Shown here piece by piece: positions 3,441 to 31,887 of a stretch of DNA of 32,000 bases. Made by a program: the position numbers and the translations under genes. Origin of the DNA: Corynebacterium amycolatum. Its GTDB lineage: Bacteria > Actinomycetota > Actinomycetes > Mycobacteriales > Mycobacteriaceae. Position 1 is the first letter of the stretch. Every line of letters starts with the position of its first letter. Where the stretch lies: NCBI RefSeq assembly GCF_049243625.1, contig NZ_CP046975.1; one strand, 5' to 3'. Below the pieces are notes generated by a model. That model saw only the letters and a list, made by a program, of their open reading frames with translations, searched no databases and had not been told where the DNA came from.

Positions 3441-3486
3441 AACCGCCGCCTCCCGGAATCTTCCAGAAGACGGCGGTTGTTTTGTC
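3441..3486. terminator. Putative bidirectional intrinsic terminator between rraA and tRNA-Pro
   Basis: AACCGCCG (3441-3448) pairs perfectly with CGGCGGTT (3471-3478). A T-rich run GTTGTTTTG follows on the plus strand, and an A-rich run AAACAAAAA precedes it, giving a T-run for the minus strand. The loop is long at 22 nt, so confidence is moderate. Confidence 0.55.
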
Positions 3487-3558
3487 GGGCTGACCGGATT
3501 TGAACCGACGACCCCCTCACCCCCAGTGAGGTGCGCTACCAAACTGCGCTACAGCCCG
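3485..3558 (-). tRNA. tRNA-Pro (anticodon GGG)
   Basis: Manual fold of the minus strand: acceptor CGGGCTG/CAGCCCG, D arm GCGC-AGTTTGGTA-GCGC, anticodon arm CCTCA-CTGGGGG-TGAGG (anticodon GGG followed by G37), variable loop GGGTC, T arm GTCGG-TTCAAAT-CCGGT, discriminator A. 74 nt, with CCA not encoded. Confidence 0.9.
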
Positions 3559-22090: not shown

Positions 22091-22268
22091 GAAGCCGCTG
22101 CCACCTTCAACGAGAAACATTCGCAGCGACAGATTCACCAATTCAATTCATAGCCACCACCGCCCCAAAAATCCTCACATTTTTCTACCGCACGCCCTCC
22201 CCAGCCTGCAGCGAGATCGGTGACGCGTTGCCCCCGCGCCGTCGTCACCGAGAAGTTCGCCTTACTCG

Positions 22269-23209
22269 CTAACTCTCCAAACGCTCCAGAACCAGCGCAG
22301 CGACTTCATCAATTTTCTCTGCATAGCCAGTGCGCTGGTTCAGCTGAGTTCCCCGCACGCCATCGGTTGCTTGCAGGTCTGCAATTGGTGAATGGCTGTC
22401 CTGAGCAGTCGCCGGCATCGAGTACATATGCGGCACATGCCCAATCAGGTACTGGTCACACGAATGCCCGAGGCTATCGCCGATCCGCTTTGCTTCGTCG
22501 TCAAACTTGCCGCGGAATCGTTCAAACGCTCCGACAAGCTGCTCTTTACCATTTGAGCACCTTTTCACGTATTCCAGCGTTGTGTAGCCAAGGTACTGAA
22601 GCCCACGCCCGTCGTGCCCGAGCAACCGAAGCTTTCGAGTTTTCTTCGAAATATCTGGCGAGTAGTTCCTCCACTGGGCAAGATTCCCCTCGGAAATTTC
22701 TCTGTCCTCAGTCACCCACTCGTTGAACCACTTGGCGAGGTTTCCAAAGACATGGAAGCTAAACAGGTCGGTTGACGTCGGAGTAACGAAGGGTTCGCAG
22801 CCCAGAAGTACGGTGCGATTGAAAGGGCCTAACGACGGTCCCACGTCGTAGAAGATGTAGTCGTACCGATCTTCATCCTCCATAGCCACAGCCAACTGCC
22901 CGGCCCAGTGGATTCGACGAAAGTCGCCGGTCTTCTTGGCTAGCGATGACTGCCATGCGTCACTCATGACATCTTCATGTTGGAAAGTGCCGGGTGCCCT
23001 GGCAGGACATCGACACCAAACCGCTCCGAGCGCACCGGCCGGATGTCGGGCTCGATATCGGTCTCGCCCTCCCGTAGCGAGATAAACAGCGAATAGACGG
23101 TTTTAGCCAACGAATCTCGCTCGGCCGGCTCATCATTCTTGCTGCTCAGGTAGATCTCCTCATGCTGCTGTTCAATCAGCATGAGTTGTGTGGCCCTCCT
23201 GCCGACAGG
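22269..23209 (-). pseudogene. ParA/MinD-like ATPase remnant: the 5' end with Walker A is missing and the body is split over two frames
   Basis: There are two fragments. The 72-aa ORF at 22964-23182 contains FGVDVLPGHPALS. The 232-aa ORF at 22269-22967 contains YDYIFYDVGPSLGPFNRTVLLGCEPFVTPTSTDLFS, the ParA Walker B / switch region. They meet at an ATGA junction in different frames. The open frame upstream of 23182 reads only PVGRRATQL before an in-frame stop at 23210-23212, 20 nt from the mrr stop codon. No KGGxGKT is encoded. Confidence 0.6.
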
Positions 23210-23231
23210 TCACACTCGGCTGTGAGATGCC

Positions 23232-24252
23232 CTACTGATCCTCTTCGAAGAAATCTTCATCCAGTTCATAAGGAGTAATCTCGTGTGCTTTTTGGACCGC
23301 GACGCCATAGTCGAGCATGAGCGCGGATAGTTTCACGCCATCAATCAGAACGATTGTTCCGTGCCTATAGTTCGCTGCGGCTTCTACAGCGCCAGAAGTA
23401 AAACGAGACGTAGTAATAAATACGCCCTTATTCGCACCTCGGGAATCTAGAGCGCCAATAAAGTTCCTAATCTCCCAATTGGCGACAGAATTCGAGTCAG
23501 CATAGCGTTTGGCCTGTACATAGACCTTCCCAAGGCCCAAGGCATCTTCACGAATTACTCCATCGACGCCGCCATCATTCGACCGTCCCAGATGCTGCTT
23601 CTGGCCGTGGACACCGCCGTATCCCATCGTCCACAGCAGTTCAATAACTGCACGTTCAAAGAACTCCGGAGTAGAGTCCTGCAGGCGCTGCCGCAAATCA
23701 GTTGAAACCTTCGCGTTCCAATCAGCTTGCGCATCCTCCACCATCTCTAATGGCGATTTTTCCGGACTACTCGGAACCTCACCCCCATGCAGCTAAAGTT
23801 CTTCCGCTACGCTCACCCGAGGATGCCAGTAGATTAGCCGCTGCATTGCCGGAGCTCTTACGCTCCCGAATCTCATCTTGGTATTGCCGCCACTTGGGCC
23901 ACTCCAGCATGTCCTTTTCGGAGTACTCCGCAAGGTTTCTTGAATCAACCTCGCGTCCGTCGTCCGAAATCACGTATCGTCCGCGCTTAGGTCGAAACAC
24001 CAAACCAGCCTGAGCAAATGAGGAACAAGCCCATGCAATTCGATTTCTATAGCGTGGCTGCCCAGACGGAACTGTCTCCGCTAAAACATCAGGAGAAAGC
24101 CCCATGTATCTGACTACTTCGTCGCCTAGTTCACTAATTCGACGCTCTCGCCCGTCAGTTAATACTCGCAGTACTGCAGGACGGAACTGATCGATTATCG
24201 GAGTGTTGTCGGAATCCATAAGAAAACTATATCCACCTAGCGGCCCTGCCAT
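23232..24252 (-). pseudogene. mrr: Mrr-type (type IV, modification-dependent) restriction endonuclease, frameshifted
   Basis: The N-terminal wHTH Mrr_N part is the 157-aa ORF at 23779-24252 (PIIDQFRPAVLRVL...PSGQPRYRNRIAWACSSFAQAGLV...RGRYVISDDG). The catalytic Mrr_cat part is the 170-aa ORF at 23232-23744 (FERAVIELLWTMGYG...SNDGGVDGVI...KVYVQAKRY...KGVFITTSRFT...LIDG). The catalytic frame stays open upstream to 23792. The two frames meet at the CCCCC run at 23782-23786. Removing one G/C gives a continuous ...LAAWGEVPSSPEKSPLEMVEDAQ... protein. Confidence 0.78.
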
Positions 24253-24294
24253 ATAGGTGTCCCCTTTCGATTCCTAAAGCTTTGTAACGGTAGA

Positions 24295-27200
24295 TTGAAC
24301 TCCATGACCGCAACTTCTGAAGCCCCGTCGCACGGGACCACTCCTGATGCTTTCGATCAGCTTTCTCCTGGCGTCACCATTAAGGTTCGTGACGAGTACT
24401 GGCTTGTAACCCACGTCACCAGGTCGAGTGACGGCTTCAAAGTTAAAGCGCGCGGCATTTCTGACTATGTGCGCGATACCACGGCTACCTTTTACACAGC
24501 GCTTGATTGCGACCTCGAAGTTTTCGATCCAGCAAAGATAACGGTTACTGCGGACAACTCCGCTGGCTTCCGTAAGTCTCGCCTCTGGCTTGAGTCCACA
24601 ATCCGTCAGACGCCTGTGCCGCTGTACCAGAACAACCTTGAGGTCTCCACGCGCATGTTGGCCGACCCGCTTGACTATCAGCTCAACGCAGTCCGCAAGG
24701 CGCTCAGCCCTGAGCACATTCGTCCGCGCATTTTGCTTGCCGACGCCGTCGGGCTTGGCAAGACTCTTGAAATCGGCATGATTGTTGCCGAGCTCATTCG
24801 CCGTGGCCGCGGAGAACGCATTCTGGTTGTTACTCCTAAGCATGTGCTTGAACAATTCCAGCAGGAAATGTGGACTCGTTTTGCGATTCCGCTCGTTCGC
24901 CTCGATTCCCAGGGCATTCAAAAGGTTCGCCAGAAGCTACCTGCTTCTAAAAACCCTTTTTCTTACTTTCCTCGCGTCATTGTCTCGATGGACACTCTGA
25001 AGTCTGCAAAGTATAAGGCGCAGTTGGAAAAGGTGAATTGGGGCATTGTCGTCATCGACGAGATTCACAATGCCACCAATTCGGGAACCCAGAATAATGA
25101 CCTCGCGCGAACGCTCGCTCCGCGCACTGAGGCACTCATCCTGGCATCGGCGACCCCTCACAATGGCAATCCGGAATCTTTCAAGGAAATCCTCAAACTG
25201 CTGGACCCGCTTGCGGTACGGCCTGATGGTTCCATTGATATGGAGTTGGCGAAGAAACTCATTATCCGCCGCCACCGAAACTCACCTGAGGTCAAGTCCG
25301 TGGTCGGCGCTAAGTGGGCGCCCCGCGAAGAACCTCTCAATATTCCGGTCGAAGCCTCAGCTGAGGAAAACGCTGTAGCTAACGAGCTTCGGGATTCATG
25401 GATTTCAACCACTGATTCGGCTGATAATTCGCGTTCTCATCTTTTTGCATGGACTTTGGTGAAGGCATTCTTGTCGTCGCCAGCTGCGCTCGAAGCATCT
25501 ATTAAGAATCGTTTGCGCACGATTGAAACTCAGTACGGCACAACCAACAATCAAGAACAGCTAGCCTTACAGCGACTCCTTGAGCTCAACTCCCATGTCA
25601 CCTCAGAGGCTTCGAACAAGTATGCCTCATTAGTCAATTATTTGATCGAAACGGTGGGAATCAGCAAGCGCTCCAAGAACCGGGTAGTCATCTTTTCCGA
25701 GCGCGTATCGACGCTGGGCTGGCTGCAGGAAAACCTGATTCGGGATTTAAAGCTCTCCCCTGCCGCGGTCAAAACAATGCACGGCCAAATGTCTGACATC
25801 GAGCAGATGGAGCTTATCGACGAATTCAAACGTACGGATACGAAGCTAAGAGTCCTCATTACCGGCGATGTGGCATCTGAAGGCGTTAATTTACATGCGC
25901 AGTGCCACGACCTCGTTCATTACGATATTCCGTGGTCTCTGATCAGAATTCAGCAGCGCAATGGCCGCATTGACCGATACGGGCAGGAGAACAATCCGCG
26001 TATTGCAGCTCTACTTCTGGATCCTGCTGATGCAGATGCCGTCGGTGAAATTCACGTTCTCACCAAATTGATTGAACGCGAATATGAGGCAAACCAGTTA
26101 CTGGGTGACGCTTCTTCTTTGATGGGACAGCATTCCGCCAAACGTGAAGAAGACGAAATTCGCGATGTCCTTCGCGGCGCTCGCGACTTTGACTCCACTG
26201 TCAAAACTGCACAGCAGATACTCGGTTCCGCTGGTGCGGCCACAAGCGACACCCCCACTCCTGGTTCTGGTAAGCACGCTTCTTCGGCCCCCGCCTCATC
26301 GCCTGAAAAAATGGTTGACGACGAAGAGGATATTGAAGTCCTCCTAGCCAGTTTGTTGGCAAGCCCATCCGCTTCCTCCCCAGATACTTCTTCCGAAGCA
26401 CAGCAGGCATCATCGGAACCTGGCTCGTTCAGCTTGTACCAATCGGAGAAGGACTATCTTGTCGATGCTCTCGCTGAGGCCTTCAATGAGGTTCCGGAGC
26501 AACGTTCCGCTGCCGGAGGCGTGGACTTAACAATTCAAGAAGGCGATATTCTCGAGCTCACACCACCGAGAGATTTACAGCGCCGTTTCGATTACCTCCC
26601 TCAAGATTATGTCTCATATCGGAAGGTCAAAGATCGACTCATGCTCGCTACTTCGCTGCACCGGGGTAACTCTCAGCTGCGAATGGCTCGCGAAGGAAAG
26701 TCGGAGAAGTCCTGGCCAAAGGCTCACTTCCTCGGCCCGCTACACCCAGTAACGGACTGGGCTGTCGACCGTGCGCTGAGTTCCATGGAGCGTTCTCAAA
26801 TACCCGCATTTGCTGGAGCAGTCGATGAGCTGACGATTCTTTTCATGTCGACTCTCACCAACTCACGTGGCCAAGTAATCACGCGTGCTTTCATTGTCGC
26901 GCAGCCTGGCCCATTCGGTTTGGATGCACCTGAGGGAATGCCCCGTGCTATTTGTCGCACTATCTCGGATCCAATTGGTTGGTTGAGGTCCACGGGACTT
27001 GCGGGTGATGCAATTTCTACCGGTACGTTGACCGTGCCTGCGGACGCTGAAGTGCTAGTTCGGGAGGGACTCCGTGAGGCACGATCTCTCACGGATATCT
27101 CAAAGCAAGCTGCGACCGAAGACGCTAATAATCGTACTAATGCTTGGTCCGAATTGGCCGCCAATTGGGAAGCTGATGCGGAGGACCTCCCCGGCACTAT

Positions 27201-27318
27201 GAGCCTTGTCAGGTCTCAACTGTTCGTTAACCAGGAGCGAGAGCTACTGACTGCGTCTATTCCTGAGCGAACGCTGATTCGTCCGCTCGCCGTCATCATC
27301 CCGTCTGCAGAAAAGTAG
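24295..27318 (+). CDS. SNF2-family (SF2) helicase/translocase with a roughly 370-aa C-terminal extension; candidate DISARM DrmD-like protein
   Basis: 1007-aa ORF with a TTG start at 24295 or an ATG at 24304. Motif I is LLADAVGLGKT (GLGKT at 24751-24765). Motif II is VVIDEIH (DEIH at 25057-25068). Motif III is LILASATPHNG. Motif V is ITGDVASEGVNLH. Motif VI is QQRNGRIDRYGQ (25951-25986). The stop codon overlaps the SD of the next gene. Confidence 0.9.
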   Translation: MNSMTATSEAPSHGTTPDAFDQLSPGVTIKVRDEYWLVTHVTRSSDGFKVKARGISDYVRDTTATFYTALDCDLEVFDPAKITVTADNSAGFRKSRLWLESTIRQTPVPLYQNNLEVSTRMLADPLDYQLNAVRKALSPEHIRPRILLADAVGLGKTLEIGMIVAELIRRGRGERILVVTPKHVLEQFQQEMWTRFAIPLVRLDSQGIQKVRQKLPASKNPFSYFPRVIVSMDTLKSAKYKAQLEKVNWGIVVIDEIHNATNSGTQNNDLARTLAPRTEALILASATPHNGNPESFKEILKLLDPLAVRPDGSIDMELAKKLIIRRHRNSPEVKSVVGAKWAPREEPLNIPVEASAEENAVANELRDSWISTTDSADNSRSHLFAWTLVKAFLSSPAALEASIKNRLRTIETQYGTTNNQEQLALQRLLELNSHVTSEASNKYASLVNYLIETVGISKRSKNRVVIFSERVSTLGWLQENLIRDLKLSPAAVKTMHGQMSDIEQMELIDEFKRTDTKLRVLITGDVASEGVNLHAQCHDLVHYDIPWSLIRIQQRNGRIDRYGQENNPRIAALLLDPADADAVGEIHVLTKLIEREYEANQLLGDASSLMGQHSAKREEDEIRDVLRGARDFDSTVKTAQQILGSAGAATSDTPTPGSGKHASSAPASSPEKMVDDEEDIEVLLASLLASPSASSPDTSSEAQQASSEPGSFSLYQSEKDYLVDALAEAFNEVPEQRSAAGGVDLTIQEGDILELTPPRDLQRRFDYLPQDYVSYRKVKDRLMLATSLHRGNSQLRMAREGKSEKSWPKAHFLGPLHPVTDWAVDRALSSMERSQIPAFAGAVDELTILFMSTLTNSRGQVITRAFIVAQPGPFGLDAPEGMPRAICRTISDPIGWLRSTGLAGDAISTGTLTVPADAEVLVREGLREARSLTDISKQAATEDANNRTNAWSELAANWEADAEDLPGTMSLVRSQLFVNQERELLTASIPERTLIRPLAVIIPSAEK

Positions 27319-27327
27319 GAGCATCTC

Positions 27328-30300
27328 ATGGCAAGTTTTGATTCCATCATCAACGTCGACGAGTGGATTAGCGACTACTACCTGACTACTGATGAGAAAA
27401 AGGGCGAGTCGTTCAGTAAGCGAGCCGATGCCGCAATTAAACAATGGAAAGCTGACGATAAGGCAAGCGGCGTCGAGGTTTCACCGTGGGGACGAATGAC
27501 TTCGAACCGCAATCAGCTGCAAACTGCACTGTCGACCATTGATGCCGACGTGAAAATCAGTGTTATCAATGCTGCCGAGCAGATCGAGAAAACGTTCGAC
27601 TATCCCGTTCCAACAGAAGTTTCTATTGACTATTCCGGGGACTCCATCAAATTGTCTGCTGCACGCGATGTGGCAGGAACGACACTTTATTTACGCACTG
27701 AACGGCTTGCCGACGTCGAAGATTTTCCTACCACCAAACTGCTTGAGGCGGCTACTAAGAATGAAAAAACTTGGGACGTCCCGGTCTCAAGAATTATCAC
27801 TGAGGTGTTTTTATCAGAACAACCTCCGACCTTCGTCGTTCTAATTGCAGGCAACATGGTTGTCTTGGCTGAGCGGGAATCGTGGCCCCTCGGCCGATTC
27901 TTAGCAGTCGATGTGGCCCTGGCAGCGGAGCGCAATGATACGAAGGTTCGCGGCGAGTTAAGTCTGGTGGTCGCTTCATTGGCGCGCGAACACATTGAGC
28001 GCGCTGCTGACGGAACAACCTGGTGGCTACAGACGATTGAAGAATCCCGCGAACATGCGGTGAAAGTCTCCGAAGATTTGCGCGAAGCGATTAAAGAGTC
28101 GATTGAGATTATCGGCAACGATGCCCTTAAGCGTTACCGCCATCAAGGTCTCGATATCGATGATGTCGACGGAAATGAGTTGTCCAAGCAGGCTCTACGC
28201 TACCTTTACCGTATACTCTTTTTGCTCTTCGCCGAGGCGTCCCCTGAACTCAATATCCTGCCTACAGGTGTGCCTGACTATGACGAGGGCTATGGACTCG
28301 CTAACCTACGCGACCAGATCTTGGTCGAGCCACCCACCGACCGTGCGGCAAATGGCACATATCTTTATGACAGTCTGAATTTGCTGTTTAACTTGGTCAA
28401 TACCGGTCACGATCCAAATGACCAGGAAAACCCTCTGCATGATGGTCACGCCGAAGAAGGCCTGACCTTCCGCAATCTGTCAGCTGACTTATTTGCGCCC
28501 AGCGCTATCGCATACATCTCTCGATCAAAACTTTCTAATGCTGCGCTTCACCGTGTGCTGCAGAATCTTCTGTTAACTCGTGAAGCTGCAGGGAAAGAAC
28601 GCGGCTATGTCTCCTACGCAACCTTAGGAGTCACCCAGCTGGGACAGGTCTATGAAGGACTGATGTCCTTTACGGGCTCGATTGCCCAAGAAGAGATGTT
28701 TGAAGTCGCGCCGAAAGGAGACGCTTCGAAAGGTTCGTGGCTAGTAACACCTGCGCTCGCAGAAAGCCTTCCATCAGATTCCTTTGTTCAGGAAAAGCTC
28801 GAGGATGGCACCCCTCGGAATCGACGCTATGCACCAGGTGACTTCGTTTTCCGACAGTCGTCCAGAGATCGTGAGCGCTCCGCGTCTTTCTACTCACCAC
28901 CGGTCATTACCGAATTTGTTGTTGGCCAAGCTATCGAGGAGCTCAAGGCCGCTCACCGCATCGATACTGCGGACGATATCCTCACACTCAGTATTTGTGA
29001 GCCGGCGATGGGATCAGGCGCCTTCGCAGTGGAAGCGGTGAATCAGTTAGCGGAGCTCTACCTGAACAAAAAGCAGGAAGAGATTGGGCAAAAGATCGAA
29101 CCAGAGCGTCTTACAGAAGAGTTGCAGAAGGTTAAGGCTTCTATTGCGCTCCATCAGGTTTACGGAGTGGACCTGAATAAAACTGCTGTCGAGCTCGCTG
29201 AAATTTCGTTGTGGCTCGACACAATGTCTGCCGAGCTAAAGGCACCATGGTTCGGGCTACACCTGCGTCACGGTAATTCCCTGATCGGCGCGCAGCGTTC
29301 TACTTTCCCAGCAACTTCGCTGAAAAAACGGGATTACTTAAGAAAAACTCCAAGACACCATTCAGTGGAATCTATTTCCAGTGCAATTGAAAGTGGCCAG
29401 CCAGATTCGTCTGTCGCTGGTCGAGTTCACCACTTCCTTGTTCCATCAACTGGTTGGGGTGCGGCGGCAGATTCGAAGGATCTCAAAGAGGTCGCACCCG
29501 ACGAAGTTGCTTCCATGAAGAATTGGCGCAAGTCCATTCAAAGAGCTTTCACAGCACCTGAGATTAAACAGTTGAAGAAACTAAGTGACCGGGTGGAAAG
29601 ACTGTGGCAACTGGCACTAGTACGCCTGCGTATCGCAGAATCCCAAGTAAGCCGAACCGTTTCGATATGGGGACAAGAAGTTGCTGAAACGGGTCAAGCA
29701 GTCACTCGAGAGCAGATTGAACACGAACTCTTCGGCAACATGGACGGTGCCTATCAGCGTCTGCGCTTAGTGATGGATGCGTGGAATGCACTATGGTTCT
29801 GGCCGCTGACTGAGGTCAGTCTTCTTCCATCAAAGGACGAATGGCTGTCAACACTCGTCGATGCTCTTGGTATTTCTACGGAATCGACGGCCAAAACTGG
29901 CCAGTACTCGATTGGCTATGACCTGCAGTGGGATGAGCTCAATTCTGTGGAGCAGCTGGAGTTCAGTGCACTCCCCTATTCCAAGTTGATTGAGGCGCAT
30001 CCTTGGCTGCAAACCGCTCAACAAGTTTCAGCTGACCAGGCGTTTTTCCATTGGGATCTTGATTTCGCTGCTGTGATGGCTGATGGAGGCTTCGATTTCC
30101 AGGTCGGTAACCCGCCTTGGGTTCGCCCGCGCACCGATGTCGATGCTCTCTATTCCGAACACGATCCATGGTTTAGTCTTGCTCATAAACCGACTCAGAC
30201 GGATAAAAAGGACCGCAGAAAGCAACTAGCAAACGACGAACGCGTTCTGGCGACCCTCGCACGAGGCTTGTCGGACTCTGTAGTGACTTCTGCTGTGCTG

Positions 30301-31887
30301 GGCGACGCTACTCGCTTCCCGCATTTAGTTGGTCAGCAACCAGATCTCTACCGAGGTTTCATGGAACAAACCTGGGCCAACGCAGCCCATGACGGTATTG
30401 TTTCGCTTATTCACCCGGAGTCTCATTTCACTGAGAAGAAAGCTGCACCGCTTCGCGCGGGTGCCTATCGACGTCTCCGCAGGCATTGGCAGTTCATAAA
30501 TGAACGTGTCTTGTTCGACATCGACCATCACGTATCCTATGGTGTCCATATTTATGGTCCACGCCTAGACGTTCCGCACTTCACCAGTGCCGCATCTCTG
30601 TATCACCCAAAAACAGTTCTCGATTCCCTTCGTCACGATGGAACTGGTCCGCTACCTGGTCTAAAGGACGACAACGACAACTGGGACCTTCGTCCTCACC
30701 GTGATCGCATTATCACGGTAGATATGAAAACTTTGCGACTTTGGCACTCGATTCTCGAGGAACCTGGGACTCCAGTTATCAATTCGAGGACTGTCTATAC
30801 AGTCAACACTGAAGCAGCTGCTGTCTTAGCAAAGCTTGCTGCGGCACCACGCGTAAAGGAACTTGGGCTGCAATTCTCGAACGGCTGGCATGAATCTGCT
30901 GACAAGAAGCGTGGTTATTTCGACACTTCTTGGCAGCATCCAGAGTCATGGAATGATGTCATCCTTCAAGGTCCTCACCTCGGCGTATCGACTCCGATGA
31001 TTAAGCAGCCCAATCCAACAATGAAACATAACCAGGACTGGTCGGAAATTGATCTCGAGGCTATTCCAGAGGACTTCATTCCTGCAACGGCCTATGCCCC
31101 AAATCGTGCAGCAACAGATTATGACTCGACATATACTCACCACACGGGATCCGACGGAGTCATAGTCTCAGATCGTTCAAAATACCGTTTTGCATGGCGC
31201 AAAATGGCAGCGACAACGGGATTCCGTACATTGTATTCTGCGCTGATTCCAAAAGGTTCAGCGATCTCCGGCTCCTCGGTTTCTGGATTGTCGTTAGTTT
31301 CTGATGAGATTTCTGTAGCCACAGGAGCAAGCCTTTCAGCAATCCTCTCTGATTTCGTAATTCGGTCAACTGGGTTAGCAAACCTATACGCCTCAACTAT
31401 TGAGCTGTTACCAGTAACCGACGCAAATGAGTTTAAAAAGACTTTTGTTTCCAACTACCTTCGCCTTAACTGCCTGACTTCTGCATACGCCCCACTGTGG
31501 GAAGAAATCACTGGTGAGCAGTGGACCACGGATACTCCACTGCGGAATGCCAAAGAACGATGGCATGCGCAAAATGAAATTGATGCAATTGTCGCGCTTT
31601 CCCTTGGCGTGACGGCTGATGAACTATGCATGATTTACCGCACCCAGTTCCCTGTGATGCGGCGGTATGACCAGGAAGACCTGTATGACGCGAATGGGCG
31701 AAAGGTTCCGAAGGACATCGCAAAACTCGAAGGAAAACTGAAGCCCGGAGAGGAATTAAGCGAAGAACGGCGGAAATGGACACATCCTCAGTCAGGTGTG
31801 ACATACACTTTTGAGTATCCATTCGCGCCACTAGACCGCGAAGAAGATCTTCGCGCAGCCTACGCACGATTTGAGAAAGAGCTATAA
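27328..31887 (+). CDS. Very large gamma-class N6-adenine DNA methyltransferase (Eco57I/PglX-like architecture); candidate DISARM DrmMI-like protein
   Basis: 1519-aa ORF with an AGGAG SD at 27317-27321, 6 nt before the ATG. The AdoMet motif I is ICEPAMGSGAF (aa 556-566, tgt at 28996). Further motifs are GVDLNKTAVELAEISLWL and HGNSLIG. The catalytic motif IV is FDFQVGNPPW (NPPW at aa 928-931, nt 30109-30120). The C-terminal EIDAIVALSLGVTADELCMIYRTQFPV tail is typical of PglX/type IIG-like methylases. Confidence 0.9.
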   Translation: MASFDSIINVDEWISDYYLTTDEKKGESFSKRADAAIKQWKADDKASGVEVSPWGRMTSNRNQLQTALSTIDADVKISVINAAEQIEKTFDYPVPTEVSIDYSGDSIKLSAARDVAGTTLYLRTERLADVEDFPTTKLLEAATKNEKTWDVPVSRIITEVFLSEQPPTFVVLIAGNMVVLAERESWPLGRFLAVDVALAAERNDTKVRGELSLVVASLAREHIERAADGTTWWLQTIEESREHAVKVSEDLREAIKESIEIIGNDALKRYRHQGLDIDDVDGNELSKQALRYLYRILFLLFAEASPELNILPTGVPDYDEGYGLANLRDQILVEPPTDRAANGTYLYDSLNLLFNLVNTGHDPNDQENPLHDGHAEEGLTFRNLSADLFAPSAIAYISRSKLSNAALHRVLQNLLLTREAAGKERGYVSYATLGVTQLGQVYEGLMSFTGSIAQEEMFEVAPKGDASKGSWLVTPALAESLPSDSFVQEKLEDGTPRNRRYAPGDFVFRQSSRDRERSASFYSPPVITEFVVGQAIEELKAAHRIDTADDILTLSICEPAMGSGAFAVEAVNQLAELYLNKKQEEIGQKIEPERLTEELQKVKASIALHQVYGVDLNKTAVELAEISLWLDTMSAELKAPWFGLHLRHGNSLIGAQRSTFPATSLKKRDYLRKTPRHHSVESISSAIESGQPDSSVAGRVHHFLVPSTGWGAAADSKDLKEVAPDEVASMKNWRKSIQRAFTAPEIKQLKKLSDRVERLWQLALVRLRIAESQVSRTVSIWGQEVAETGQAVTREQIEHELFGNMDGAYQRLRLVMDAWNALWFWPLTEVSLLPSKDEWLSTLVDALGISTESTAKTGQYSIGYDLQWDELNSVEQLEFSALPYSKLIEAHPWLQTAQQVSADQAFFHWDLDFAAVMADGGFDFQVGNPPWVRPRTDVDALYSEHDPWFSLAHKPTQTDKKDRRKQLANDERVLATLARGLSDSVVTSAVLGDATRFPHLVGQQPDLYRGFMEQTWANAAHDGIVSLIHPESHFTEKKAAPLRAGAYRRLRRHWQFINERVLFDIDHHVSYGVHIYGPRLDVPHFTSAASLYHPKTVLDSLRHDGTGPLPGLKDDNDNWDLRPHRDRIITVDMKTLRLWHSILEEPGTPVINSRTVYTVNTEAAAVLAKLAAAPRVKELGLQFSNGWHESADKKRGYFDTSWQHPESWNDVILQGPHLGVSTPMIKQPNPTMKHNQDWSEIDLEAIPEDFIPATAYAPNRAATDYDSTYTHHTGSDGVIVSDRSKYRFAWRKMAATTGFRTLYSALIPKGSAISGSSVSGLSLVSDEISVATGASLSAILSDFVIRSTGLANLYASTIELLPVTDANEFKKTFVSNYLRLNCLTSAYAPLWEEITGEQWTTDTPLRNAKERWHAQNEIDAIVALSLGVTADELCMIYRTQFPVMRRYDQEDLYDANGRKVPKDIAKLEGKLKPGEELSEERRKWTHPQSGVTYTFEYPFAPLDREEDLRAAYARFEKEL

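What the first reader, a model, noticed from the sequence alone, without database searches (positions are those of the whole stretch)
23745..23795. mrr is inactivated by a single-base frameshift in a G5/C5 run, next to a newly acquired adenine methylase
Seen directly: the Mrr_N frame ends ...GCA TGG GGG TGA at 23779, while the catalytic-domain frame is open from 23792 onward. Deleting one G of the GGGGG run (plus-strand CCCCC at 23782-23786) fuses them into one roughly 330-aa Mrr. All catalytic-domain hallmarks are still intact (DGGVDG, QAKRY, FITTS), so the lesion looks recent.

Established: Mrr-type enzymes cut modified DNA, including m6A-modified DNA in E. coli.

Inference: acquiring the divergently transcribed m6A methylase operon 42 bp away would make an active Mrr self-toxic, selecting for this knockout. 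That would be a visible trace of conflict between a methylation-dependent system and a methylation-based one. A sequencing or assembly error in a homopolymer is the trivial alternative.
Basis: partly seen in the sequence, partly recalled or inferred. Interest (0 to 1): 0.65.

Follow-up and report, generated by a model that had tools for sequence, protein, structure and literature searches.

The report
Frameshifted mrr gene beside ARMADA defence operon
A methylated-DNA-cutting restriction gene (mrr) in one Corynebacterium amycolatum clone really is broken by one extra G, but close relatives keep an intact copy beside the same methylase operon, so this is most likely ordinary decay of a defence island, not a clear trace of conflict.

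Summary
On the minus strand the Mrr_N frame ends GCA TGG GGG TGA (G5 at 23786-23782, stop at 23781-23779). The Mrr_cat frame is open from 23792. Removing one G gives a 339-aa Mrr, the same length as intact relatives and with an identical junction peptide; those relatives have G4 at this site. It is not an assembly error: G5 appears in every independent assembly examined (three complete genomes plus Logan, JGI and ENA contigs). The lesion is recent, with no second lesion and dN/dS of 0.14 against the intact allele.

The neighbouring operon is not newly acquired. It is an ARMADA Type II-like system (Swi2/Snf2 helicase, PglX-like adenine methylase, YprA/DUF1998 helicase, GajB-like UvrD helicase).

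One narrower version survives. The methylase has a roughly 125-aa hypervariable, target-recognition-like cassette, and the window's variant is unique to the frameshifted clone. That is a single evolutionary event, so it cannot be tested statistically.

The same clone also has a frameshifted gene just downstream of mrr, and its sub-lineages have lost ArmC and ArmB. General erosion of the island is therefore the better-supported reading.

The parts
23779..24252 (-). 5' part of mrr: 157-aa ORF encoding the Mrr_N winged-helix domain and part of the linker, ending at the premature TGA (23781-23779)
   Evidence: The exact 157-aa product is found on at least 24 contigs from independent sources.
23782..23786 (-). 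G5 run (C5 on the plus strand). It holds the +1 G insertion relative to G4 in all intact alleles.
   Evidence: DNA alignments. All frameshift-lineage loci show GCATGGGGGTGA.
23232..23792 (-). 3' part of mrr in the +1 frame: rest of the linker plus the Mrr_cat PD-(D/E)xK domain. The first ATG is at 23744 (170-aa ORF) and has no usable Shine-Dalgarno sequence.
   Evidence: Motifs DGGVDG 23576-23559, QAKRY 23516-23502 and FITTS 23420-23406. The sequence upstream of ATG 23744 is also shown.
24261..24269 (-). Shine-Dalgarno-like GAAAGGGGA, 8 nt upstream of the mrr start codon (ATG at 24252-24250)
   Evidence: read directly from the sequence. Conserved in intact alleles.
22269..23182 (-). Second pseudogene, 49 nt downstream of mrr: a ParA-like (AAA_31) gene split into 72 + 232 aa by a 1-nt deletion near 22976 (AACATTGAAG becomes AACA-TGAAG). 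It is 304-340 aa and intact in relatives.
24304..27318 (+). ArmA-like Swi2/Snf2 helicase (1004 aa; an alternative TTG start lies at 24295), transcribed divergently from mrr
   Evidence: Pfam SNF2-rel_dom and Helicase_C. PADLOC DrmD 1e-90 and BrxH 2e-55. NCBIfam DrmD scores 328 bits, below the 610 cut-off. Walker A K153 and DEIH at 252.
27328..31887 (+). ArmB-like (PglX/Eco57I-type) N6-adenine methyltransferase, 1519 aa. SAM motif PAMGSGAF at 29002-29025, NPPW at 30109-30120.
   Evidence: The AlphaFold model of aa 1001-1519 has pLDDT 94, and its best Foldseek matches are M.BseCI, CamA, PglX/BrxX and M.TaqI.
31105..31482 (+). Hypervariable, target-recognition-like cassette of the methylase (aa ~1260-1385). 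The window's variant 'A' is 46-52% identical to variants B-E, while the rest of the protein is 86-97% identical.

Best explanation
This is a genuine, recent pseudogenisation of a resident Type IV (Mrr-family) restriction gene. Replication slippage added one G to a G4 run in the linker between the winged-helix and nuclease domains. Translation now stops after residue 157, and the nuclease domain is left in another frame without a usable ribosome-binding site.

The allele is fixed in one near-clonal C. amycolatum lineage that includes CP008913.1, CP069513.1 and GCA_054653755.1.

mrr is a conserved anchor gene at a chromosomal defence hotspot. The cargo next to it is exchanged by recombination and can be an ARMADA Type II-like operon, a Type I system or a Type ISP system. 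The ARMADA-like operon is a long-standing neighbour of intact mrr, not a newcomer.

The frameshift is most likely one of several loss-of-function mutations accumulating in this island under relaxed selection, or under selection against costly defence genes. It is probably not a response to acquiring the methylase.

Shown: the lesion, that it is real, that it is recent, that intact mrr co-occurs with the operon, and the other lesions in the island. Inferred: the slippage mechanism, the loss of function, and the reason the allele became fixed.
For: - The lesion is real. G5 is present in every locus of the clone examined, against G4 in all intact alleles. The exact 157-aa fragment occurs on at least 24 contigs from NCBI, Logan, JGI and ENA, and a further strain differs by one residue.
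- The repaired product is 339 aa and collinear with Mrr profiles.
- The lesion is recent. dN/dS is 0.14 for mrr, against 0.10 for the helicase and 0.15 for the methylase in the same comparison. Clone members are at least 99.9% identical. The exact repaired protein is absent from the 15-billion-sequence collection.
- The operon is not a newcomer. Intact mrr lies next to the intact operon in SK46, L010 and L011, L030-37, L038-43, L044-46 and L048-53.
- One identical Mrr protein coexists with two different methylase cassettes.
- Intact mrr also lies next to Type ISP and Type I methylase systems at the same site.
- The island is eroding. The ParA-like gene just downstream is frameshifted in the same clone. 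In sub-lineages ArmC has a T6-to-T5 frameshift and ArmB a Trp-to-stop change. In other lineages ArmA has a 1-nt deletion and ArmC is interrupted by an insertion sequence.
- Changes unique to the window's mrr branch number 7 nonsynonymous and 8 synonymous, against 28 and 87 pooled for three intact alleles. This is a mild, non-significant sign of relaxed constraint.
Against: - The window's methylase cassette (variant A) is the most divergent of the variants seen and occurs only with the broken mrr. Selection by a new methylation motif is therefore not excluded.
- No other mrr pseudogene was seen in the 40 of the cluster's 50 member sequences that were read. Loss of mrr is thus not frequent in this group, which makes the coincidence with variant A somewhat suggestive.
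- The elevated nonsynonymous-to-synonymous ratio on the window branch is not significant (Fisher p = 0.12).
- Loss of function is inferred from sequence only. Expression was not tested.
Confidence: 0.6

Rival explanations
1. Motif-specific epigenetic conflict, a narrowed form of the reader's idea. Recombination gave the ARMADA-like methylase a new target-recognition cassette (variant A). The resulting m6A motif is recognised by the resident Mrr. Cells survived only with mrr knocked out, and the downstream ParA-like partner gene then decayed.
For: - The cassette at aa ~1260-1385 is hypervariable and is swapped between otherwise identical methylase backbones: L049 matches L030 100% over aa 1-1040 but carries a B-like cassette.
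- Variant A is found only with frameshifted mrr, in 22 contigs that carry the exact methylase.
- The cassette lies in the C-terminal part of the methylase, whose model resembles gamma-class N6-adenine methylases such as M.TaqI, CamA, M.BseCI and PglX; that those enzymes carry C-terminal recognition domains is from my own knowledge.
- There is experimental precedent. E. coli Mrr is genotoxic with the StyLTI Mod methylase and can drive loss of one partner (PMC3152355). A methyl-dependent nuclease is silenced after an RM system arrives (PMC8989522).
- An actinobacterial Mrr homologue (Rv2528c) reduced transformation by plasmids methylated in vitro with methylases such as M.EcoGII and M.HhaI (PMC11279042).
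Against: - This rests on one evolutionary event, because all variant-A islands are 99.9-100% identical. There is no statistical support.
- Closely related Mrr proteins, in one case the identical protein, coexist intact with four distinct cassette variants plus B-like and E-like subvariants, and with Type I and Type ISP methylases.
- The papers read here report no methylation data for ArmB, so genome-wide methylation by it has not been shown.
- Other defence genes in the same island are also being lost without any such rationale.
Confidence: 0.27
2. The gene is still functional. Either +1 ribosomal frameshifting at GGG-UGA yields the same 339-aa protein, or the winged-helix and nuclease halves are made as two separate polypeptides.
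For: - A +1 slip of tRNA-Gly from GGG to GGU at the UGA stop would restore the ancestral reading ...AWGEVPSS... exactly.
- The break falls cleanly in the interdomain linker, and an in-frame ATG lies 11 codons downstream.
Against: - The G5 site exists only in one clone. All other homologues are in frame with G4, so the shift site is not conserved.
- There is no Shine-Dalgarno sequence upstream of ATG 23744 and no prfB-type stimulator at the right spacing.
- The co-transcribed downstream gene is also frameshifted.
- Homologues across Actinomycetota are single proteins of 298-349 aa.
Confidence: 0.04
3. Sequencing or assembly error in a homopolymer: the true sequence is G4 and the gene is intact.
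For: Homopolymer length errors are common on some sequencing platforms. That is the only argument in favour.
Against: - The identical G5 appears in three complete genomes from different submitters, in Illumina-based Logan assemblies of four runs, in three JGI metagenomes and in one ENA metagenome.
- Related strains assembled in the same ways show G4.
Confidence: 0.01

Closest known systems
Mrr (EcoKMrr) family of Type IV modification-dependent restriction endonucleases; nearest studied actinobacterial homologue is Rv2528c of M. tuberculosis
   Same: Same two-domain layout: an N-terminal Mrr_N winged helix and a C-terminal Mrr_cat PD-(D/E)xK domain with a D...QxK-type motif (DGGVDG...QAKRY). 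The repaired protein matches the PADLOC mREase_IV profile end to end.
   Different: - The reading frame is broken between the two domains.
- No solved structure is detectable by sequence search.
- No NCBIfam model is matched.
- Substrate specificity is unknown.
Mrr versus methyltransferase antagonism (E. coli Mrr against StyLTI Mod, PMC3152355; PcaRCI against PcaRCII, PMC8989522; conflict concept reviewed in PMC2993543)
   Same: A methyl-dependent nuclease gene lies beside a methylase-based defence system, and one partner is inactivated.
   Different: - In the published cases incompatibility was shown experimentally and backed by anti-correlation across genomes.
- Here mrr and the operon are positively associated across lineages.
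- Only one clonal lineage has the lesion, and no toxicity data exist.
ARMADA Type II (ArmA-ArmB-ArmC-ArmD; bioRxiv 10.1101/2025.09.15.676423; PMC13463889)
   Same: - Same gene order and domain content: Swi2/Snf2 helicase, PglX-like NPPW methylase, YprA-type DEAD/Helicase_C/DUF1998 helicase of about 2100 aa, and a GajB-like UvrD helicase with an N-terminal extension.
- The GxG-to-NPPW spacing of 366 residues equals that between the mutated residues G605 and N971 of E. coli ArmB.
- As reported for E. coli, the diversity is concentrated in armB.
   Different: - The host is Corynebacterium, and there is no neighbouring Zorya or Druantia system.
- The Vsr-type nuclease of ArmC and the RelE-like domain of ArmD were seen only as motifs by eye, not by a profile.
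- No direct alignment to the E. coli proteins was possible here.
- Only ArmA and ArmB lie inside the window.
DISARM class 1 (DrmD, DrmMI, DrmA, DrmB, DrmC)
   Same: A Swi2/Snf2 helicase plus an adenine methylase plus a DUF1998-containing helicase. PADLOC DrmD scores 1e-90 and DrmMI 9e-57.
   Different: - The NCBIfam DrmD equivalog score (328 bits) is below its cut-off (610).
- The DrmA and DrmB functions are fused in one protein whose best hits are DruE models.
- No PLD-type DrmC is present; a UvrD-like helicase follows instead.

Membership tests
Mrr-family Type IV restriction endonuclease | N-terminal Mrr_N winged-helix domain | tested here: met
   Pfam PF14338, 4.5e-22, residues 22-103
Mrr-family Type IV restriction endonuclease | C-terminal Mrr_cat PD-(D/E)xK nuclease domain with its catalytic motifs | tested here: met
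   Pfam PF04471, 3.9e-32, residues 192-312. DGGVDG, QAKRY and FITTS are present, and D230, Q246 and K248 are invariant in the alignment.
Mrr-family Type IV restriction endonuclease | Both domains in one uninterrupted reading frame (a functional gene) | tested here: not met
   The +1 G insertion creates a TGA after codon 157. The gene is a pseudogene of this family.
Mrr-family Type IV restriction endonuclease | Cleavage that depends on DNA methylation | not testable with these tools
   Needs in vivo restriction or toxicity assays.
ARMADA Type II (neighbouring operon) | Strict gene order: Swi2/Snf2 helicase, PglX-like methylase, YprA-like helicase, GajB-like UvrD helicase | tested here: met
   Genes of 1004, 1519, 2117 and 781 aa with matching Pfam and PADLOC domains, compared with the definition quoted.
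ARMADA Type II (neighbouring operon) | ArmB has the NPPW and GxG methyltransferase motifs | tested here: met
   PAMGSGAF at aa 559-566 and NPPW at aa 928-931
ARMADA Type II (neighbouring operon) | ArmC has a C-terminal Vsr-type nuclease and ArmD an N-terminal RelE-like domain | tested here: inconclusive
   No Pfam hit. Only motif-level resemblance seen by eye (DFYFDVDG...VYVDGVQFH, and the N-terminal 90 aa of the UvrD-like protein).
ARMADA Type II (neighbouring operon) | Sequence homology to experimentally validated E. coli ArmA-D | not tested
DISARM class 1 | DrmD equivalog, separate DrmA and DrmB proteins, PLD-type DrmC | tested here: not met
   NCBIfam DrmD scores 328 bits, below the 610 cut-off. 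The 2117-aa protein best matches DruE, with DrmA models at 1e-17 or weaker. No PLD gene follows.
Programmed +1 frameshift (prfB-like recoding) | Shift site conserved among homologues, with a stimulatory element | tested here: not met
   G5 occurs in only one clone, and all other alleles are in frame with G4. No suitably spaced SD-like stimulator is present.
Phase-variable (contingency) homopolymer locus | Long tract whose length varies among closely related isolates | tested here: not met
   The tract is only 5 nt. It is G5 in all clone members and G4 in all others, with no heterogeneity within a lineage.

The most novel reading that the evidence does not exclude
The mrr knockout was selected because recombination gave the adjacent ARMADA-type methylase a new target-recognition cassette (variant A), and the resident Mrr attacks the resulting m6A motif. 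That would be the first natural example of antagonism between a Type IV enzyme and an ARMADA system. It would also show that cassette shuffling in ArmB can force loss of neighbouring defences.
Probability: 0.25. Interest if true: 0.55.

Novelty: new member of a known kind. Interest (0 to 1): 0.25.

Why it matters
On its own this is an ordinary pseudogene, and conflict between Type IV enzymes and methylases is an established idea.

The locus still has some value as a test system:
- A conserved mrr anchor sits beside an ARMADA-type operon whose methylase carries a shuffled, hypervariable cassette.
- At least five cassette variants exist among near-identical islands, and only one of them is paired with a dead mrr.
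- Natural material like this could show whether Mrr constrains which methylation specificities a genome can adopt.
- It could also be used to map the specificity determinants of ArmB.

For annotation, the 157-aa and 170-aa ORFs in these genomes should be treated as one mrr pseudogene.

Tried and rejected
- Metagenome scan for close Mrr relatives: only two distant loci, no use.
- Protein search with the methylase C-terminus: returned only proteins of 833 aa or less, not even the window's own protein. The best identity was 72-77%, so no independent allele with the variant-A cassette was found.
- 'Truncated' Mrr proteins P0363 (255 aa) and P0371 (246 aa) looked like independent mrr lesions. Their loci hold intact 339-aa ORFs with G4, so these are start-codon annotation choices. 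Lead rejected.
- Sequence search of the repaired Mrr against the PDB: no match.
- Promoter and terminator scan of 22100-24500: no promoter-like site, and one weak terminator-like site inside the coding region.
- Rfam on the whole window: only tRNA-Pro.
- Literature search for a C. amycolatum methylome: nothing.
- Recoding or phase variation: considered and rejected, as set out in the membership tests.
- L005/L020 as proof that the broken allele spread horizontally: kept only as a possibility, because a chimeric metagenome scaffold would look the same.

Full report
**Observation**

The minus strand of 23232-24252 holds two consecutive ORFs. The first, 24252..23779 (157 aa), ends ...GCA TGG GGG TGA. 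The G5 run is at 23786-23782 and the stop at 23781-23779. The second frame is open from 23792, has its first ATG at 23744 and ends at 23232.

Removing one G gives a 339-aa protein. It has Pfam Mrr_N (residues 22-103, 4.5e-22) and Mrr_cat (192-312, 3.9e-32), and matches the PADLOC Type IV profile over its whole length (2e-57). Every coordinate in the finding is therefore correct. The only corrections are the length (339 aa, not about 330) and the gap to the helicase, which is 42 bp only if the TTG at 24295 is used; gene callers use the ATG at 24304, giving 51 bp.

**Real lesion or artefact**

DNA alignment shows that intact alleles (C. amycolatum SK46 = L013, and L010, L011, L030, L044-46) have GCAT-GGGG-TGAG where the window has GGGGG. 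The lesion is therefore a +1 G insertion in a G4 run. One intact allele has exactly the junction peptide that the repair predicts, AWGEVPSSPEKSPLEMVEDAQ.

The exact 157-aa fragment is encoded on at least 24 contigs. These come from three complete genomes (GCA_054653755.1, CP008913.1, CP069513.1), four Logan runs, three JGI metagenomes and one ENA metagenome, and every locus examined shows G5. An assembly error is excluded.

**Age of the lesion**

Against the SK46 allele, mrr has dN/dS of 0.14. The neighbouring helicase (0.10) and methylase (0.15) are similar, and neither half of mrr has a second stop or indel. Clone members are at least 99.9% identical across 18-24 kb. The exact repaired protein is not in the 15-billion-sequence collection.

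Changes unique to the window's mrr branch number 7 nonsynonymous and 8 synonymous, against 28 and 87 pooled for three intact alleles. They include replacements at otherwise conserved positions, listed's alignment numbering as T21I and L329P. This hints at relaxed constraint but is not significant (p = 0.12).

**What the neighbour is**

The divergent operon encodes four proteins:
- a 1004-aa Swi2/Snf2 helicase;
- a 1519-aa Eco57I/PglX-type methylase (PAMGSGAF at aa 559, NPPW at aa 928);
- beyond the window, a 2117-aa DEAD/Helicase_C/DUF1998 (MZB) helicase whose best PADLOC matches are DruE models;
- a 781-aa UvrD-like helicase with GajB-like matches.

This is the gene order and domain content of ARMADA Type II (ArmA-D), as defined in bioRxiv 10.1101/2025.09.15.676423 and PMC13463889. 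The GxG-to-NPPW spacing (366 residues) equals that between residues G605 and N971 mutated in E. coli ArmB. It is not canonical DISARM class 1: the NCBIfam DrmD score is below its cut-off, the DrmA and DrmB functions are fused, and no PLD gene is present. I could not align the proteins to the E. coli ones, so ARMADA membership rests on architecture.

**Test of the 'newly acquired methylase' idea**

Such strains exist in numbers:
- SK46, L010 and L011;
- 19 contigs with a 99%-identical helicase, L030-37;
- 20 contigs of a more distant version, L038-43;
- three NCBI genomes, L044-46;
- 13 contigs, L048-53.

At the same chromosomal site (MctB/SteA on one side; lipase, DJ-1 and CTP synthase on the other), intact mrr also sits beside a Type ISP enzyme and beside Type I hsdM/S(/R) systems. 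So mrr is a conserved anchor at a defence hotspot, and adenine-methylase systems next to it are the norm.

**What keeps a narrower version alive**

The methylase has a hypervariable segment at aa ~1260-1385 (window 31105-31482). Five variants were seen:
- A: the window;
- B: SK46;
- C: L030 and L046;
- D: L038;
- E: L044 and L045.

B-like and E-like subvariants also occur. The variants are 46-70% identical to one another, while the rest of the protein is 86-100% identical. The same segment is the most variable in a 64-sequence family alignment. It lies in the C-terminal region, whose high-confidence model (pLDDT 94) resembles gamma-class N6-adenine methylases such as M.BseCI, CamA, PglX and M.TaqI; that these enzymes have C-terminal recognition domains is from my own knowledge.

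Cassettes are shuffled. The L049 methylase is 100% identical to the L030 one over aa 1-1040 but carries a B-like cassette. Variant A is the most divergent and is found only with the frameshifted mrr. However, all variant-A islands are 99.9-100% identical, so this is one evolutionary event. In addition, one identical Mrr protein (P0373, the closest intact allele at 326 of 339 residues) coexists with both B-like and E-like cassettes. A motif-specific conflict is possible and has experimental precedent (PMC3152355, PMC8989522), but it is unsupported beyond this single coincidence.

**Evidence for general erosion**

Loss-of-function lesions are common in this island:
- In the same clone, the ParA-like (AAA_31) gene 49 nt downstream of mrr has its own 1-nt deletion near 22976 (72 + 232 aa, against 304-340 aa elsewhere).
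- Within the clone, CP008913.1 and L002 carry a T6-to-T5 frameshift in the ArmC-like gene. L002 also has a Trp-to-stop change in the methylase. These account for 1 of 6 and 2 of 5 of all differences between clone members over 20-24 kb.
- In other lineages, ArmA has a 1-nt deletion (L048, L050, L052).
- In CP066023.1, ArmC is interrupted by an insertion sequence.
- The Type ISP gene of strain LK31 is split.

**Other readings**

A +1 ribosomal slip at GGG-UGA would regenerate the ancestral protein, and the break falls neatly between the two domains. Against this, the site is not conserved, no Shine-Dalgarno sequence precedes ATG 23744, and the downstream partner gene is also broken. Phase variation is unlikely for a 5-nt tract that shows no heterogeneity within a lineage.

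**Side observation**

In L005/L020 the island is essentially identical to the window's from the far end of the locus up to about codon 312 of mrr. From there on, identity drops to 90-93%. This is either a recombination breakpoint in the conserved 3' end of mrr, meaning the island with the broken gene moved between lineages, or a chimeric metagenome scaffold.

**Verdict**

The frameshift is real, recent and clone-specific. A cassette-specific conflict remains an untested possibility (about 0.25-0.3). Ordinary decay of a defence island is the best-supported explanation (about 0.6). Interest is low to moderate.

Noticed in passing
window 22269-23182 (-), lesion near 22976: The ParA-like/AAA_31 gene just downstream of mrr is also a pseudogene in this clone. 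A 1-nt deletion (AACATTGAAG to AACA-TGAAG) splits it into 72 + 232 aa. It is intact (304-340 aa) next to intact mrr in other lineages, which suggests an mrr plus ATPase gene pair.
   Followed up: yes
window 24304-31887 (+), continuing beyond 32000; L017:6977-23288: The 'helicase-methylase operon' is a four-gene ARMADA Type II-like system (Swi2/Snf2 helicase, PglX-like methylase, 2117-aa YprA/DUF1998 helicase, GajB-like UvrD helicase) in a Corynebacterium. PADLOC 2023 labels its parts as DrmD, IIG MTase and DruE.
   Followed up: partly
window 31105-31482 (+); L013, L030, L038, L044, L048, L049: The methylase carries a cassette of about 125 aa with at least five variants (46-70% identical) inside otherwise 86-100% identical proteins. 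L049 has the L030 backbone (100% over aa 1-1040) with a B-like cassette, so the cassette moves by recombination.
   Followed up: yes
L005/L020 (ENA ERZ28605682), against window ~23290-23320: The island is near-identical to the window's up to about mrr codon 312. Beyond that point identity falls to 90-93%, and all 9 mrr differences cluster in codons 313-334. This is either a recombination breakpoint inside mrr or a chimeric scaffold.
   Followed up: partly
L018:16331 (CP008913.1); L002:590 and 6368; L048:6936-9949; L044:1-2108: Further loss-of-function lesions in the ARMADA-like genes of relatives: a T6-to-T5 frameshift in ArmC, a Trp-to-stop change in ArmB, a 1-nt deletion in ArmA, and an insertion sequence in ArmC.
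   Followed up: yes
L025:3502-8570; L026:5844-9493; L029:1115-7409: The same chromosomal slot next to intact mrr holds different cargo in other strains: a split Type ISP enzyme, Type I hsdM/hsdS with a resolvase, or a complete Type I hsdMSR with an HTH/M78 pair. This marks a defence hotspot anchored by mrr.
   Followed up: partly
L011:12171-15767; L048:14666-18264: In some strains a GmrSD_N-domain gene and a TROVE/vWA (Ro60-like) gene are inserted downstream of the mrr and ParA-like pair.
   Followed up: no
P0363, P0371, P0372 (NCBI records for L044-46 and SK46): Public annotations give mrr lengths of 246, 255, 328 and 365 aa for ORFs that are all intact 339-aa genes. These are inconsistent start-codon calls that can be mistaken for truncations.
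   Followed up: yes
window 3484-3558 (-): tRNA-Pro (GGG) is the only RNA gene found in the window.
   Followed up: no
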